Assembly: GCA_041168925.1 (NCBI GenBank)
Contig: JBEEJY010000006.1
Coordinates: forward strand, 2,859-66,858
Length of the DNA: 64,000 bases
Source of the DNA: Candidatus Parcubacteria bacterium
GTDB taxonomy: Bacteria; Patescibacteriota; Minisyncoccia; Phycocordibacterales; UBA2100
Reading direction: 5' to 3'
Shown here piece after piece: positions 41,294 through 43,260 of the stretch; position 1 is the stretch's first letter; each line of letters starts with the position of its first letter. The position numbers and the translations under genes were made by a program. Below the pieces are notes generated by a model that saw only the letters and a list, made by a program, of their open reading frames with translations, did not search any database and was not told the origin of the DNA.

Positions 41294-42175
41294 TTATACC
41301 GTACTCTCCCGTCCGGCAATATCTTTCTCCGAGTCGATGAAAGATTGAATGTCTCCTTCGAGCACATGCTCGACGTCGCGGCGCTCGTGTTCGGTGCGGT
41401 GATCTTTGACGAGCTGGTACGGATGGAGCACGTATGAGCGTATCTGACTTCCCCACTCGATCTTCGTCGAGGCGCCGGCAGATAGCCCGCGTGACTGATT
41501 GATCTGTGCGGTTTCCTTGAGCTGAAATAATTTTCCGCGAATCATCTCGAGCGCTTTTTCTCTATTTTGCGCCTGGCTCCTCTCGCTTGTAACGTGCACG
41601 GTGATGCCCGATGGCTTGTGCGTCATCCGTACCGCAGTATCGCGTTTGTTGACGTTTTGCCCGCCCGGGCCGCCAGAACGGGCGACCGTGATCTCAAGCT
41701 CGCTTTCTGGAACGTGCGTGTCGTCGACATCGGGAAGCCTCGGCAGTACCTCGACGAGCGAGAAGCTCGTTTGTCGCTTGCCGGCCGCGTTGAAAGGCGA
41801 CATGCGCACCAGCCGGTGCACCCCCGCTTCTTTTTTCAAACTGCCGTACGCGTCACGTCCGACCACTTCAAACGAAACACTTCGGTATCCGCCCAGCGAA
41901 TTCGCGTTCGAAGAAAGCAGCACTGTTCGCCAGTCGCGCGAGGCGGCGTATTTCCCGTACATTTCAAAAAGCATTCGTGAAAAATCTTCGGCGTCGTCGC
42001 CGCCTGCGCCGGAAATTATCGAGACAATGGCGTCTCCTTTGTCGTATTGCCCTACACCTGCGATCTTTGCCTTCAGCTCTTGGTACTCTTTCACGGCGGT
42101 CTGTGCCTTCTCCTTATCATTCCAAAAATCCGCGGAACCCATAGCAGCTTCTATCTCCGCGATTCTAATTTCCAT
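41294..42175 (-). CDS. prfB: Peptide chain release factor 2 (N-terminally short form)
   Basis: Contains the GGQ motif ([20 protein letters not shown]) and the SPF tripeptide (RMSPFNAAG), which marks RF2 rather than RF1. The ORF-track start at 42190 lies 1 nt from the tRNA-Thr 3' end, so the ATG at 42175 (MEIRIAEIE) is preferred. No +1 frameshift site is visible. Confidence 0.8.
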
Positions 42176-42191
42176 TTTTACTTTATCCATG

Positions 42192-42263
42192 AGCCGACCC
42201 GGGGAGTTGAACCCCGAACCTACGGTTTACGATACCGTTGCTCTACCATTGAGCTAGGTCGGC
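42192..42263 (-). tRNA. tRNA-Thr (anticodon CGU)
   Basis: Reverse complement GCCGACC-TA-GCTC-AATGGTA-GAGC-A-ACGGT-ATCGTAA-ACCGT-AGGTT-CGGGG-TTCAACT-CCCCG-GGTCGGC-T folds as a cloverleaf with anticodon CGT. CCA is not encoded. Confidence 0.8.
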
Positions 42264-42365: not shown

Positions 42366-42607
42366 AGCCGATGGCCGGAATTGAACCGGCGACCTACTCC
42401 TTCATTGCTACCTCCGTTTATGTATTATCGGAGGATTAGACTGTATATCCGACTCAACGAGTCGCTCTTGTCAGTCGTTCGGGCGCAAGCGCCACGGTCT
42501 GAACCTCGTACAGGCCTTTGACCGTTATTCGAGCGTGCAACAACAGATTGCTCTGTTGCGGGCAGTTGTCTACCATGGAGTTGCTCTACCAACTGAGCTA
42601 CATCGGC
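42366..42607 (-). tRNA. tRNA-Thr (anticodon GGU) interrupted by a 169-nt intron (42403..42571) in the anticodon loop between nt 36 and 37; candidate group I intron
   Basis: The 5' exon (42572..42607 reverse complement) is GCCGATG-TA-GCTC-AGTTGGTA-GAGC-A-ACTCC-ATGGT. The 3' exon (42366..42402 reverse complement) is AA-GGAGT-AGGTC-GCCGG-TTCAATT-CCGGC-CATCGGC-T. All four stems pair, and the variable loop AGGTC matches E. coli tRNA-Thr(GGU). The 5' exon ends in U and the insert ends in G, as group I splicing requires. The insert contains GGATATACAGTC, reminiscent of the P7 3' strand (GAUAUAGUC). Confidence 0.6.
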
Positions 42608-42609
42608 TT

Positions 42610-43260
42610 CTATGTACTTCCTTTGGCCACCCCTTCGATGGCATTGCAGAGAATATCACGAAGCTTCTTATTATTGAAATACACCGTGAGTATGCCGTAT
42701 CTGGTCTTCCGGCGGTAGTTGCCGATGCCGCGATGCGGCGTCACAACAATCGTGGGAAGAAATTGTTGGCGAGGAGCGCGAAGCAGGCGCATCCAATATC
42801 GTATGGCTTCAGTTTTGTTCATATCTCCGAAAATCTGAAGGCCGAAACGTAACTTCTTTGTTTGTATCCCATAACACTTCACCAAAAATTGTATGAATAT
42901 GCTAATAAGTTTCGGATCGCTATTCCCCAACCGAATCGAGCCTCTGTTCGCTTTAGTACCTTCACCCCAGTACAAGCCTATACCAATGCCGTACAAGATT
43001 GCTTCATTAATGGTTCGCGGAAAACTGACCTTGAAGGGGTCGCCGGCCGGATTCCACATTTCATATAAAGCATCGCTTATTGACCGTTTGGGAATCTTGA
43101 ACTTCGAGAGCCAGTAGTTCACCTGATGCTGCGAACATTTGAGTTGCTTCGCAATAGTTGATACCGACAATTTCTTTTCTTGATATAGCTTTAACAGCGT
43201 CCCCCTCCCAATCATTAGAGTAATATACCACGCTGTACCTAATCTACTGGATACTCCCAT
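42610..43260 (-). CDS. Low-GC ORF encoding an N-terminal helix-turn-helix plus a LAGLIDADG-like single-motif domain; candidate free-standing homing endonuclease
   Basis: The 216-aa ORF ends 2 nt upstream of the intron-containing tRNA-Thr 5' end. LSVSTIAKQLKCSQHQVNYWLSKFKI is HTH-like. EAILYGIGIGLYWGEGTKANRGSIRLGNSDPKLISIFIQFLVKCYGI resembles the LAGLIDADG helix plus the following beta strand (L.G..DGDGS.........I..). The segment is about 45% GC against about 60% for its flanks. Confidence 0.4.
   Translation of the reverse strand: MGVSSRLGTAWYITLMIGRGTLLKLYQEKKLSVSTIAKQLKCSQHQVNYWLSKFKIPKRSISDALYEMWNPAGDPFKVSFPRTINEAILYGIGIGLYWGEGTKANRGSIRLGNSDPKLISIFIQFLVKCYGIQTKKLRFGLQIFGDMNKTEAIRYWMRLLRAPRQQFLPTIVVTPHRGIGNYRRKTRYGILTVYFNNKKLRDILCNAIEGVAKGST

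What the first reader, a model, noticed from the sequence alone, without database searches (positions are those of the whole stretch)
42366..42607. tRNA-Thr(GGU) gene split by a 169-nt intron in the anticodon loop, with group I intron boundary signatures
The two ends of this 242-nt segment fold into a complete canonical cloverleaf when joined. The acceptor pairs 7/7 (GCCGATG with CATCGGC), the D-stem is GCTC/GAGC, the anticodon stem is ACTCC/GGAGT, and the T-arm is GCCGG-TTCAATT-CCGGC. The anticodon loop is A-T-GGT-A-A and the variable loop AGGTC is identical to E. coli tRNA-Thr(GGU). The loop is interrupted between nt 36 and 37 by 169 nt (42403..42571). The base before the insert is U and the last base of the insert is G, which are the 5' and 3' splice-site requirements of group I introns. 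The insert contains a GGATATACAGTC segment resembling the conserved P7 3' strand, with a potential partner GACTG upstream. Bacterial tRNA group I introns are known for Leu(UAA), fMet, Arg(CCU) and Ile(CAU). A Thr(GGU) host, and a compact 169-nt core, would be unusual. A second, intron-less tRNA-Thr(CGU) lies immediately downstream, so the isoacceptor set may depend on self-splicing.
Basis: partly seen in the sequence, partly recalled or inferred. Interest (0 to 1): 0.75.

Follow-up and report, generated by a model that had tools for sequence, protein, structure and literature searches.

The report
Mini group I intron in tRNA-Thr
A threonine tRNA gene of an ultra-small (Patescibacteria) bacterium is interrupted by a real, unusually tiny 169-base self-splicing-type (group I) intron; it belongs to a family already reported but barely studied, and about half of that family's members sit next to a previously unnoticed homing-endonuclease-like gene.

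Summary
On the minus strand, 42366..42607 is tRNA-Thr(GGU) split between nt 36 and 37 by a 169-nt insert (42403..42571). An intronless tRNA-Thr(GGU) in a related Kaiserbacteria genome matches the in-silico spliced product at 72/73 positions.

The insert is a group I intron. I recovered 168 distinct homologues, all in tRNA-Thr(GGU) at 36/37. On two separately gathered sets, 96-97% of cells pair in P1-P9, against 28-46% in slid registers. Compensatory changes occur in 29-33 of 46 pairs, including the P3 pseudoknot and P9.0 next to the terminal G. The U.G wobble at the 5' splice site is invariant.

Rfam RF00028 misses it. That matches the literature: tRNA-Thr(GGU) 36/37 'divergent group I introns' of Patescibacteria were reported by Castelle 2018, Williams 2020 and Nakagawa 2026, so this is a new member of a known kind. 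Splicing of this family has never been tested.

Two points go beyond those papers. At 169 nt (family range 158-230) the intron is shorter than the 205-nt Azoarcus model. In 47% of loci, including this window, a 200-aa HTH + LAGLIDADG-fold gene lies directly upstream of the tRNA, which suggests a free-standing homing endonuclease.

The parts
42366..42607 (-). Complete interrupted tRNA-Thr(GGU) gene (73-nt mature tRNA plus 169-nt intron; no encoded CCA)
   Evidence: ARAGORN with introns enabled. The spliced product matches the intronless tRNA-Thr(GGU) of L003 at 72/73 positions.
42572..42607 (-). Exon 1 (tRNA nt 1-36), ending in anticodon GGU. The last three nt (42574..42572) form the exon half of P1.
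42403..42571 (-). Group I intron, 169 nt
   Evidence: Family model R1 scores it 158.7 bits, E about 2e-52, and it is the only hit in the window. All 46 family base pairs are standard pairs in this copy.
42561..42574 (-). P1: exon GGU + intron AG (42574..42570) paired with the internal guide sequence CUGCC (42565..42561); loop ACAA. The U36.G wobble (42572 with 42563) marks the 5' splice site.
   Evidence: The U.G pair is invariant (59/59, 100/100). The P1 extension pairs covary (AU/GU/GC/UA).
42540..42559 (-). P2 hairpin, 8 bp, capped by a GCAA (GNRA) tetraloop
   Evidence: All 8 pairs covary. L2 is GNRA in 167/168 family members.
42531..42533 (-). P3 5' strand (CUC). It pairs with 42465..42467 (GAG) to form the pseudoknot with P7.
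   Evidence: 100% and 99.3% of cells paired; 3 of 3 pairs show changes on both sides.
42494..42525 (-). P4 (ACGGUC/GACCGU) enclosing J4/5, P5 (GGCC/GGUU) and J5/4
   Evidence: RNAalifold and pair counts.
42482..42493 (-). P6 minimal hairpin (GGCG-CUUG-CGCC)
   Evidence: 4-5 of its 5 pairs covary in the family.
42472..42476 (-). P7 5' strand GACUG, preceded by J6/7 CGAAC; presumed guanosine-binding helix
   Evidence: Invariant in 59/59 and at least 100/102 sequences. It matches the GACU of the Rfam RF00028 consensus printed.
42465..42467 (-). P3 3' strand (GAG), after J7/3 ACAA
42450..42464 (-). P8 minimal hairpin (CGACUC-GUU-GAGUCG)
   Evidence: 3 of 3 modelled pairs covary. Larger relatives carry an 11-nt-receptor-like motif here, and only when L2 is GAAA.
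42439..42449 (-). J8/7 (GAUAUA) plus the P7 3' strand CAGUC
   Evidence: The family consensus AAGAUACAGUCU differs from the RF00028 consensus AAGAUAUAGUCu at one position.
42404..42436 (-). P9.0 (AU 42436..42435 with AU 42405..42404) enclosing the P9 hairpin (CCUCC/GGAGG)
   Evidence: P9.0 is paired in 100% and 98% of cells, with 9 pair combinations.
42403..42403 (-). Terminal guanosine (omega-G), last base of the intron
   Evidence: G in 59/59 distinct introns of the exon-anchored set (58 metagenomic plus the window's own), which put no constraint on the 3' end.
42366..42402 (-). Exon 2 (tRNA nt 37-73)
42610..43215 (-). Linked gene of 201 aa (216 aa from the first ATG at 43260): N-terminal HTH plus one LAGLIDADG-fold domain. 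Its stop codon lies 2 nt before the tRNA 5' end. Candidate free-standing homing endonuclease.
42191..42263 (-). Intronless tRNA-Thr(CGU), 102 nt downstream (context only, not part of the intron)

Best explanation
The 169-nt insert is a group I intron of the tRNA-Thr(GGU) 36/37 family that is widespread in Patescibacteria. It keeps every core element of a group I ribozyme in near-minimal form.

Inferred mechanism. In the precursor, the tRNA anticodon stem holds the two exons together. The anticodon GGU plus the first two intron bases pair with the guide sequence CUGCC to form P1, which places U36 in a U.G wobble. A free guanosine bound at P7 (GACUG/CAGUC) attacks after U36. The terminal G (42403) is then brought into the same site by the 2-bp P9.0, and the 3'-OH of U36 attacks after it. 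This joins U36 to A37 and restores the loop AUGGUAA of a functional tRNA-Thr(GGU).

Shown here: the precise insertion, the architecture, its covariation, and strong purifying selection on the fold. Inferred: the catalysis itself, and whether it needs a protein.

The intron carries no ORF. The LAGLIDADG-fold gene abutting the tRNA probably provides, or once provided, DNA-level mobility. It would do so as a free-standing homing endonuclease rather than as an obligatory splicing factor.
For: (1) Precise insertion. The spliced product matches an intronless orthologue at 72/73 positions.

(2) Homologues. There are 168 distinct homologues: 58 further introns from an exon-anchored metagenome scan and 110 from a core-anchored scan of species-representative genomes. 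All are in tRNA-Thr(GGU) at 36/37.

(3) Unprompted structure. RNAalifold on a plain MAFFT alignment returns P1, P2, P4-P9 and the anticodon stem.

(4) Pair counts. On the plain MAFFT alignment: 96.9% of cells paired, against 80.6% in shuffles and 28-46% in slid registers; 29/46 pairs changed on both sides; covariation 0.489 vs 0.167; 0/500 shuffles reach it. On the second set, aligned to model R1 and therefore leaning towards its structure: 96.0%, 33/46, 0.531 vs 0.172.

(5) Group I-specific long-range pairings covary. The P3 pseudoknot shows 5 combinations and 58/58 paired. P9.0 next to the terminal G shows 9 combinations and 58/58 paired.

(6) Splice-site marks. The U.G wobble at the 5' splice site is invariant, and the terminal G is present in 59/59.

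(7) Tertiary signal. L2 is GNRA in 167/168. The 11-nt-receptor-like motif in P8 appears only with GAAA loops (23/83 vs 0/85, p=1.5e-8).

(8) Link to certified group I introns. Model R1 detects an RF00028-positive tRNA-Tyr intron (27.8 bits, E=3.6e-7). RF00028 gives a family member a weak but full-length, correct-strand match (14.9 bits, E=0.32).

(9) Fold stability. MFE z-score -3.46.

(10) Literature. The same host, position and phylum, and the same blindness of RF00028, are reported in PMC13011429.
Against: No experimental or transcript evidence of splicing exists for this copy or for any member of the Thr family. Nakagawa et al. tested only the Asn and Asp introns.

Rfam RF00028 does not reach threshold. 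It gives no hit at all on the window and none on 20 relatives.

P3 is only 3 bp in the family consensus. P7 lacks the bulged nucleotide seen in many group I introns (seen directly in the sequence).

P7 and most of P4 never vary, so they are supported by conservation only.

Whether such a pared-down ribozyme folds without help is unknown.

Only 64 kb of the genome is visible, so a second, intronless Thr(GGU) gene cannot be excluded.
Confidence: 0.85

Rival explanations
1. The intron is a genuine group I RNA but is not autonomous. Being so reduced, it needs a protein cofactor to fold, and the adjacent LAGLIDADG-fold protein acts as its maturase, as some mitochondrial LAGLIDADG proteins do.
For: The gene abuts the tRNA (2-nt gap) on the same strand in the window. 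It holds that position in 78/165 loci and in 3 of 4 reverse look-ups. LAGLIDADG maturases are established for some organellar group I introns (general knowledge; the bI3 maturase is mentioned in PMC2813881). The peripheral elements in the window's copy are minimal.
Against: 53% of intron-bearing loci with adequate flank lack the gene. Its presence is unrelated to intron length (medians 195.5 vs 192 nt, p=0.33). It differs between loci whose introns are 97-100% identical. One homologue sits next to an intronless tRNA-Thr(GGU). The invariant acidic residue in GLYWGEG points to a retained nuclease site.
Confidence: 0.1
2. The interrupted gene is a dead copy: a tRNA pseudogene carrying a decayed intron that is never spliced.
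For: No splicing data exist. RF00028 is negative. The whole genome is not available to show that this is the only Thr(GGU) gene.
Against: Exons are 72/73 identical to a functional-looking orthologue. All 46 structural pairs are intact in this copy. The family shows pervasive compensatory change, which is purifying selection on the fold, across 168 variants in many classes of Patescibacteria. No other Thr(GGU) gene lies in the window. Nakagawa et al. treat the same introns as the genomes' tRNA-Thr genes, found by tFind.
Confidence: 0.03
3. The insert is not a group I intron but another kind of element: an archaeal-type bulge-helix-bulge intron at 37/38 cut by a protein endonuclease, a group II fragment, or a small non-autonomous transposon.
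For: In this copy the boundary could formally be 37/38, the canonical archaeal/eukaryal position (seen directly in the sequence). There is no Rfam hit of any kind.
Against: 64 of 110 genome relatives begin with a base other than A, which rules out 37/38 for them. A 37/38 boundary would lose both the U-1 and the terminal G. The covarying structure is P1-P9 with the P3/P7 pseudoknot and P9.0, not a BHB motif. The host is a bacterium. There are no terminal inverted repeats or target duplication; the insertion is exact.
Confidence: 0.02

Closest known systems
tRNA-Thr(GGU) 36/37 'divergent group I introns' of Patescibacteria (Castelle et al. 2018; tFind class of Williams 2020, bioRxiv 10.1101/2020.01.27.920355; Nakagawa et al. 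2026, PMC13011429, Table 1)
   Same: Same host tRNA and anticodon, same insertion site (36/37, U-1 and terminal G), same phylum (classes Paceibacteria and Saccharimonadia are both among my hits), and the same failure of RF00028 and mis-calls by ARAGORN as Arg(GCG).
   Different: Those papers list three genomes and give no structure, covariation or splicing test for the Thr introns. Here the family is shown in at least 119 species-representative genomes, with a covariation-supported structure. This copy (169 nt) lies below the 184-894 nt range they report for 333 tRNA introns. I could not compare sequences with the three published cases directly, because they are not in the held supplement.
[quoted passage not shown]
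   Same: A tRNA anticodon-loop intron after a U. It has a very short exon part of P1, no ORF, and the same element set P2-P9 plus P9.0 (PMC13168695). A tetraloop-receptor signal for L2-P8 appears here; the corresponding contact in Azoarcus is from my own knowledge.
   Different: 36 nt shorter, with a different host tRNA and position. The core sequence differs (J8/7 is AAGAUA-like, as in the RF00028 consensus). Nakagawa's tree groups the Thr introns with IA, not IC. Azoarcus self-splicing is proven; this one is untested.
Patescibacteria tRNA-Tyr/Asn/Asp 35/36 group I introns (Nakagawa 2026; self-splicing shown for Asn and Asp)
   Same: Same phylum, and alignable cores: GAUAACGGUGAAAGC resembles GAAUAACGGUUAAAGG, and AAGAUAUAGUCC resembles AAGAUACAGUCU. 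My Thr model detects the Tyr intron at E=3.6e-7. The two can sit in tandem in one tRNA cluster (L188).
   Different: Those are detected by RF00028 (47 bits in L188), are inserted at 35/36, and some carry HNH endonuclease genes inside the intron. The Thr family has no internal ORF, and the last pair of P7 is changed from A-U to G-C.
Collaborative homing: a free-standing homing endonuclease beside an endonuclease-less group I intron (F-CphI next to psbA of cyanophage S-PM2; mobE / I-TevIII in T4)
   Same: An optional endonuclease-like gene lies immediately beside an intron-containing gene whose intron has no ORF, with sporadic presence among close relatives. The concept is as described in PMC6083498 and PMC2790892.
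   Different: Known cases are in phages, in protein-coding genes, and use Endo VII or HNH enzymes. Here the setting would be a cellular genome, a tRNA gene and a LAGLIDADG-fold protein. Cleavage activity and target are untested, and one homologue sits beside an intronless tRNA.

Membership tests
Group I intron | 5' splice site follows a U that forms a U.G wobble in P1 with an internal guide sequence | tested here: met
   U36 (42572) pairs with G (42563). The pair is invariant in 59/59 and 100/100 sequences, and the flanking P1 pairs covary.
Group I intron | Intron ends in a guanosine (omega-G), positioned by P9.0 | tested here: met
   G in 59/59 distinct introns of the set collected with no 3' constraint. 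P9.0 is 98-100% paired with 9 pair combinations.
Group I intron | Conserved core of P3-P9: a P4-P5-P6 stack and a P3-P7-P8 stack joined by the P3/P7 pseudoknot | tested here: met
   All helices were recovered. 29/46 and 33/46 pairs carry double changes. The P3 pseudoknot is 99-100% paired and 3 of 3 pairs covary.
Group I intron | Conserved P7 / J8/7 sequence forming the guanosine-binding site | tested here: inconclusive
   P7 GACUG/CAGUC and J8/7 AAGAUA are invariant and close to the RF00028 consensus GACUA / AAGAUAUAGUC. Invariance gives no covariation, and G binding cannot be tested in silico.
Group I intron | Match to the curated covariance model Rfam RF00028 at gathering score (50 bits) | tested here: not met
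   No hit at E<=10 on the window or on 20 relatives. One relative scored 14.9 bits, E=0.32. As positive control, the adjacent tRNA-Tyr intron scored 47 bits. The model is a detection tool rather than a definition, and its blindness to this family is published.
Group I intron | Guanosine- and Mg2+-dependent self-splicing by two transesterifications | not testable with these tools
   Needs an in vitro transcript or RNA data. No experiment on any Thr-family member was found in the literature searched.
Patescibacteria tRNA-Thr(GGU) 36/37 divergent group I introns | Host tRNA-Thr(GGU), insertion between nt 36 and 37 | tested here: met
   for the window; 110/110 resolvable genome relatives.
Patescibacteria tRNA-Thr(GGU) 36/37 divergent group I introns | Host organism in phylum Patescibacteria | tested here: met
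   The window's prfB is 100% identical to that of a 'Candidatus Parcubacteria bacterium' MAG, and its relatives are Kaiserbacteria and Paceibacterota. A few family members lie in records labelled otherwise, including the isolate Niastella populi.
Patescibacteria tRNA-Thr(GGU) 36/37 divergent group I introns | Detected by tFind's model gpI_bact_tRNA.cm, and sequence homology to the three published cases | not testable with these tools
A search of the held supplement for the core string found nothing.
Group I subgroup IA | Extra helices P7.1/P7.2 between P7 and P3 (Michel-Westhof classification, from general knowledge) | tested here: not met
   J7/3 is only 4 nt (ACAA) in essentially all members. 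Nakagawa's tree nevertheless places the Thr introns on a long branch within IA. I leave the subgroup open.
LAGLIDADG homing endonuclease (for the linked ORF 42610..43215) | LAGLIDADG helix ending in a conserved acidic residue, packed on an alpha-beta-beta-alpha-beta-beta-alpha core | tested here: met
LAGLIDADG homing endonuclease (for the linked ORF 42610..43215) | Match to curated LAGLIDADG profiles or to solved structures by sequence | tested here: not met
   Pfam LAGLIDADG_3 matches only 9/45 members, with best E 0.038. A profile search against PDB sequences found nothing real. Foldseek gave no hit with E below 0.04.
LAGLIDADG homing endonuclease (for the linked ORF 42610..43215) | Site-specific DNA cleavage of the element-free allele | not testable with these tools
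   Needs the purified protein and the intronless tRNA-Thr(GGU) gene as substrate.

The most novel reading that the evidence does not exclude
The endonuclease-less mini-intron and the LAGLIDADG-fold gene abutting the tRNA form a 'collaborative homing' pair in cellular genomes. The free-standing enzyme cuts the near-palindromic anticodon-arm DNA of intronless tRNA-Thr(GGU) genes. The intron protects its own host gene by splitting that site, and the two elements spread together across Patescibacteria. This would overturn the published inference that tRNA introns lacking internal endonuclease genes have limited mobility. It would also supply a natural 158-169-nt complete group I ribozyme, smaller than the Azoarcus model.
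Probability: 0.35. Interest if true: 0.7.

Novelty: new member of a known kind. Interest (0 to 1): 0.45.

Why it matters
For annotation. This tRNA is invisible to default ARAGORN, to Rfam tRNA and to RF00028, and intron-aware ARAGORN mis-assigns about half of its relatives to Arg, His or Pro. Genomes carrying it will therefore look as if they lack tRNA-Thr(GGU), which distorts completeness scores and codon-capacity inferences for Patescibacteria. The family model and core pattern derived here find it cleanly, at 109-202 bits.

For RNA biology. The family packs a full group I core (P1-P9, the P3/P7 pseudoknot and P9.0) into 158-230 nt, and this copy is 169 nt. The Azoarcus model used for structural and origin-of-life work is 205 nt. 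A smaller natural self-splicing ribozyme, with 168 natural variants to guide design, would be a useful minimal system.

For mobile-element biology. If the linked LAGLIDADG-fold gene is an active free-standing homing endonuclease, 'HEG-less' tRNA introns are not immobile. Collaborative homing, known so far from phages, would then operate on a tRNA gene in cellular genomes.

Tried and rejected
(1) Rfam at gathering threshold on the window, and Rfam in permissive mode on the region, found no group I or group II hit. The permissive scan on 20 relatives was also negative. I treat this as a limit of the model, not as evidence against the intron, because of the positive control and the literature.

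(2) A phage origin for the window is rejected. PHROG and Pfam hits are cellular housekeeping genes: prfB-like, ftsE, ftsX, pyrG, ligA, gatA. The only phage-database DNA hits are short tRNA matches.

(3) Using synteny through prfB to collect relatives was inefficient, because the upstream synteny is not conserved. It did yield the decisive intronless allele in L003.

(4) Raw ARAGORN intron calls on relatives gave Thr, Arg, His, Pro and Leu assignments. I replaced them with boundaries set by U-1, the terminal G and restoration of the anticodon stem, each verified on the spliced product.

(5) A 5-bp P3 for the window (CGCUC/GAGCG) is possible in this copy, but only the inner 3 bp are general; the outer 2 compete with P8.

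(6) A P10 pairing between exon 2 and the guide region reaches 1 bp at most. The anticodon stem probably aligns the exons instead, as shown for the Anabaena pre-tRNA intron (Zaug et al. 1993, cited).

(7) The weak 'HNH endonuclease' PHROG hits of the upstream ORF cover only its HTH and are not evidence for an HNH nuclease.

(9) I tried to link the family directly to the three published genomes through the paper's supplement. The sequences are not in the held text.
Full report
**1. What is there**

Read on the minus strand, window 42366..42607 is GCCGATG-TA-GCTC-AGTTGGTA-GAGC-A-ACTCC-ATGGT | 169 nt | AA-GGAGT-AGGTC-GCCGG-TTCAATT-CCGGC-CATCGGC-T.
- Default ARAGORN and Rfam at gathering threshold do not see a gene here.
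The spliced 73-mer is a canonical cloverleaf.

The surrounding genes are cellular: a prfB-like release factor, ftsE, ftsX, pyrG, gatA and ligA. The release factor is 100% identical to a protein of a 'Candidatus Parcubacteria bacterium' MAG, and its nearest relatives are Kaiserbacteria and Paceibacterota. The host is therefore a patescibacterium (CPR).

**2. The insertion is precise**

A complete Kaiserbacteria genome (GCA_016432285.1, locus L003; release factor 83% identical) carries an intronless tRNA-Thr(GGU) next to prfB. It matches the in-silico spliced product at 72 of 73 positions and is continuous across the junction. The 169 nt is an exact insertion into a conserved, functional-looking tRNA gene.

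**3. It belongs to a large family**

I ran two scans with different anchors.

*Exon-anchored metagenome scan.* The pattern was exon 1 followed by a non-A base after TGGTA. This excludes intronless alleles and assumes nothing about the insert. It returned 83 contigs.
- 72 contigs contained a complete insert before the same exon 2, giving 58 distinct introns, or 59 with the window's own.
- Lengths run from 169 to 229 nt, and the window's copy is the shortest.
- Every intron ends in G.
- Four core blocks are nearly invariant: CCCGAAUAACGGUUAAAG, AGACCGUGGC, CGAACGACUGACAAGGG and AAGAUACAGUCUAAUCC. Between them lie hairpins that vary in sequence and length.

- They span many Patescibacteria lineages: Kaiser-, Wolfe-, Taylor-, Morani-, Komeili-, Doudna-, Yanofsky-, Lipton-, Nomura-, Peregrini-, Ryan-, Uhr-, Jorgensen- and Azambacteria, and many Saccharibacteria.
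- A few MAGs carry other labels, and one hit is an isolate, Niastella populi.
- I set boundaries by U-1, a terminal G and restoration of the anticodon stem, and verified each on the spliced product. By these rules 110 of 119 are tRNA-Thr(GGU) at 36/37.
- The other nine are truncated or have one stem mismatch, but show the same exons.
- Lengths are 158-230 nt.
- Raw ARAGORN calls many of them Arg(GCG) or His(GUG). The Arg(GCG) mis-call is the one already described in the literature.

**4. It has group I architecture, and the architecture covaries**

RNAalifold on the plain MAFFT alignment A1, with no prior, returned the following:
- the tRNA anticodon stem (exon-exon pairing);
- P1, with the exon's GGU paired to GCC and U.G at the splice site;
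- P2, P4, P5, P6, P7, P8 and P9.

I added two pairings seen by eye: the P3 pseudoknot (3 nt before GAAU with 3 nt after GACUG-ACAA) and P9.0 (2 nt after CAGUC-UA with the 2 nt before the terminal G).

| Measure | A1: 58 metagenomic introns + the window | A2: genome-derived set |
|---|---|---|
| Cells forming a standard pair | 96.9% | 96.0% |
| Same measure in column shuffles | 80.6% | 77.5% |
| Same measure in slid registers | 28-46% | 31-45% |
| Pairs changed on both sides | 29/46 | 33/46 |
| Covariation score (observed vs shuffled) | 0.489 vs 0.167 | 0.531 vs 0.172 |
| Shuffles reaching the observed values | 0/500 | 0/500 |

A2 was collected with a different anchor and its members were not used to build the model. 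It was, however, aligned to the family model R1 and so leans towards that structure.

Other details:
- P3 is paired in 99-100% of cells, with combinations CCC/GGG, CCU/GGG, CUC/GAG, CCU/AGG and UUC/GAA.
- P9.0 is paired in 98-100% of cells, with nine combinations.
- The splice-site U.G is invariant (59/59 and 100/100).
- The next two P1 pairs covary (AU/GU/GC/UA; GC/AU).
- P7 (GACUG/CAGUC) and most of P4 never vary.
- The window's own copy forms a standard pair at all 46 positions.
- Its MFE fold alone reproduces the hairpins, with z = -3.46.

There is also a tertiary-contact signal. L2 is a GNRA tetraloop in 167 of 168 unique introns. A CUAAG…UAUG (11-nt-receptor-like) motif in P8 occurs only when L2 is GAAA (23/83 vs 0/85, Fisher p = 1.5e-8).

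**5. Relation to curated group I models**

- RF00028 gives no hit at E<=10 on the window or on 20 relatives.
- As a positive control, locus L188 carries a tRNA-Tyr(GUA) gene with a group I intron 90 nt upstream of its split tRNA-Thr(GGU). RF00028 scores the Tyr intron 47 bits (E = 8e-11) and the Thr intron 14.9 bits (E = 0.32; full length, correct strand).
- Conversely, my family model R1 detects the Tyr intron at 27.8 bits (E = 3.6e-7).
- The cores are visibly alignable. The family's AAGAUACAGUCU differs at one position from the RF00028 consensus AAGAUAUAGUCu.
- The last P7 pair is A-U in the Tyr intron and G-C in the Thr family, which is a compensatory change.
- R1 finds exactly one copy in the window (158.7 bits).

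**6. What is already known**

- Williams (2020 preprint) extended the interrupted bacterial tRNA types from 4 to 21 using tFind and a new model.
- Nakagawa et al. (mSystems 2026) list Thr(GGU) 36/37 in three complete Patescibacteria genomes. tFind found these and RF00028 did not. ARAGORN called two of them Arg(GCG).
- The authors call them 'divergent group I introns' after Castelle et al. 2018, and place them on a long branch with IA introns.
- They tested splicing only for the Asn and Asp introns.
- They report lengths of 184-894 nt for 333 tRNA introns.
- They looked for endonuclease genes only inside introns, and concluded that mobility is limited.

New here:
- the breadth of the family;
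- its covariation-supported structure, including P3, P9.0 and L2-P8;
- its small size.

The Azoarcus model intron is 205 nt with the same element set. This copy is 169 nt because L1, P5, P6, P8 and P9 are all minimal. A 158-nt relative (L138) has lost the P9 hairpin altogether, leaving P9.0 to close a pentaloop.

**7. How it most likely works**

Shown:
- the precise insertion;
- a complete, selected group I fold;
- the U.G and terminal-G marks at the boundaries.

Inferred:
- guanosine-initiated attack after U36;
- docking of the terminal G (42403) through P9.0 into the P7 site;
- exon ligation that restores the loop AUGGUAA.

The anticodon stem, rather than a P10 helix, probably aligns the exons. 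P10 could form at most 1 bp here. [quoted passage not shown] 1993, cited).

Dependence of the cell on splicing is plausible, since no other Thr(GGU) gene lies in the 64 kb. It is unproven.

**8. An unplanned finding: a linked gene**

*Position in the window.* The ORF directly upstream (42610..43215; 201 aa) ends 2 nt before the tRNA.

*Linkage.*
- tblastn shows homologues at 40-63% identity in the same place (immediately 5', same strand, median gap 18 nt) in 78 of the 165 intron loci with enough flank. The other 87 loci lack it.
- In reverse look-ups, three of four homologues on long contigs are followed within 17-28 nt by the family intron.
- The fourth is followed after 14 nt by an intronless tRNA-Thr(GGU).
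- The two intronless loci found through prfB (L003, L009) lack the ORF.

*What the protein is.*
- The family has about 690 members, all annotated as hypothetical.
- It has an N-terminal HTH (Pfam HTH_23 in 33/45 members) and an invariant GLYWGEGxK motif.
- Sequence methods barely see a LAGLIDADG relationship: PF14528 is marginal in 9/45 members, and there is no real PDB hit.
- Six more LAGLIDADG-fold proteins fall in the top 27: I-DmoI, I-Tsp061I, E-DreI, PI-PfuI and WhiA twice.
- Foldseek alone was uninformative.

*Selfish element or cofactor.* Presence of the ORF is unrelated to intron length (p = 0.33), and it differs between loci whose introns are 97-100% identical. I read it as a free-standing, sporadically gained and lost LAGLIDADG-type homing-endonuclease gene tied to the tRNA-Thr(GGU) locus.

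*Possible mechanism.* It may work with the intron by 'collaborative homing', as described for F-CphI and psbA in cyanophage S-PM2. The anticodon-arm DNA is a near-palindrome (ACTCC-ATGGTAA-GGAGT) with the intron site near its centre. That would suit a homodimeric single-motif enzyme, but this is my inference and is untested.

*Alternatives.* A maturase role is the main alternative and looks less likely. A purely regulatory WhiA-like role cannot be excluded, although WhiA proteins lack the catalytic acidic residue that is invariant here (general knowledge).

**9. Verdict**

The feature is a new member of a known, little-studied family, so its novelty as a kind is low. Three things raise the interest to moderate:
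- it is a near-minimal natural group I ribozyme;
- no splicing experiment yet exists for this family;
- the linked LAGLIDADG-fold gene, if active, would change how the mobility of these 'HEG-less' tRNA introns is understood.

Noticed in passing
window 42610..43260 (-): A 201/216-aa gene ends 2 nt before the split tRNA. It has an HTH plus a LAGLIDADG-fold domain with the invariant motif GLYWGEGxK. Homologues occupy the same position in 47% of intron loci across Patescibacteria and in one intronless locus. The family has about 690 members, all annotated as hypothetical. It is a candidate free-standing homing endonuclease.
   Followed up: partly
L188:7162-7436 (-) and L111:7625-7895 (-): tRNA-Tyr(GUA) genes interrupted at 35/36 by a more canonical group I intron (RF00028 47 bits). 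In L188 this gene sits in tandem, about 90 nt upstream of the split tRNA-Thr(GGU), so two adjacent tRNA genes both need splicing. A distant paralogue (29% identity) of the LAGLIDADG-fold ORF lies just upstream of the Tyr gene.
   Followed up: partly
L158:5227-5424 (-) (NZ_LWBP01000002.1, Niastella populi CCTCC AB 208238): A cultured Bacteroidota isolate carries a 181-nt member of the same intron family in its tRNA-Thr(GGU), on a 300-kb contig. The family is therefore not confined to Patescibacteria, and a cultivable organism is available for RT-PCR. Several MAGs labelled Gammaproteobacteria, Bdellovibrionales or Pedobacter also carry it; whether those labels are right was not checked.
   Followed up: no
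L138:5915-6089 (+): The shortest family member, 158 nt. The P9 hairpin is deleted, so P9.0 (GC/GC) closes a CAAAA loop directly before the terminal G, while the rest of the core is intact.
   Followed up: partly
L217:2602-2677 (+), also L218 and L219 (GCA_018817805.1): A homologue of the LAGLIDADG-fold ORF lies 14 nt upstream of an intronless tRNA-Thr(GGU) whose anticodon stem (ACGCA/UGCGU) differs from the usual ACUCC/GGAGU. This could be a case of intron loss or of a cleavage-resistant target.
   Followed up: no
loci L094-L212: Intron-aware ARAGORN assigns only about half of these split tRNA-Thr(GGU) genes correctly. The rest are called Arg(GCG), His(GUG), Pro(GGG), Leu(GAG) and others, because it picks a wrong 3' partner for the anticodon stem. 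This is a systematic annotation hazard for Patescibacteria genomes.
   Followed up: yes
window 41294..42190 (-): The release-factor gene next to the tRNAs encodes only 298 aa. The Pfam PCRF match covers just the C-terminal part of that domain (profile positions 95-194), so the usual N-terminal region appears to be missing. About 8000 similar short homologues exist, so this looks lineage-typical rather than a truncation.
   Followed up: no
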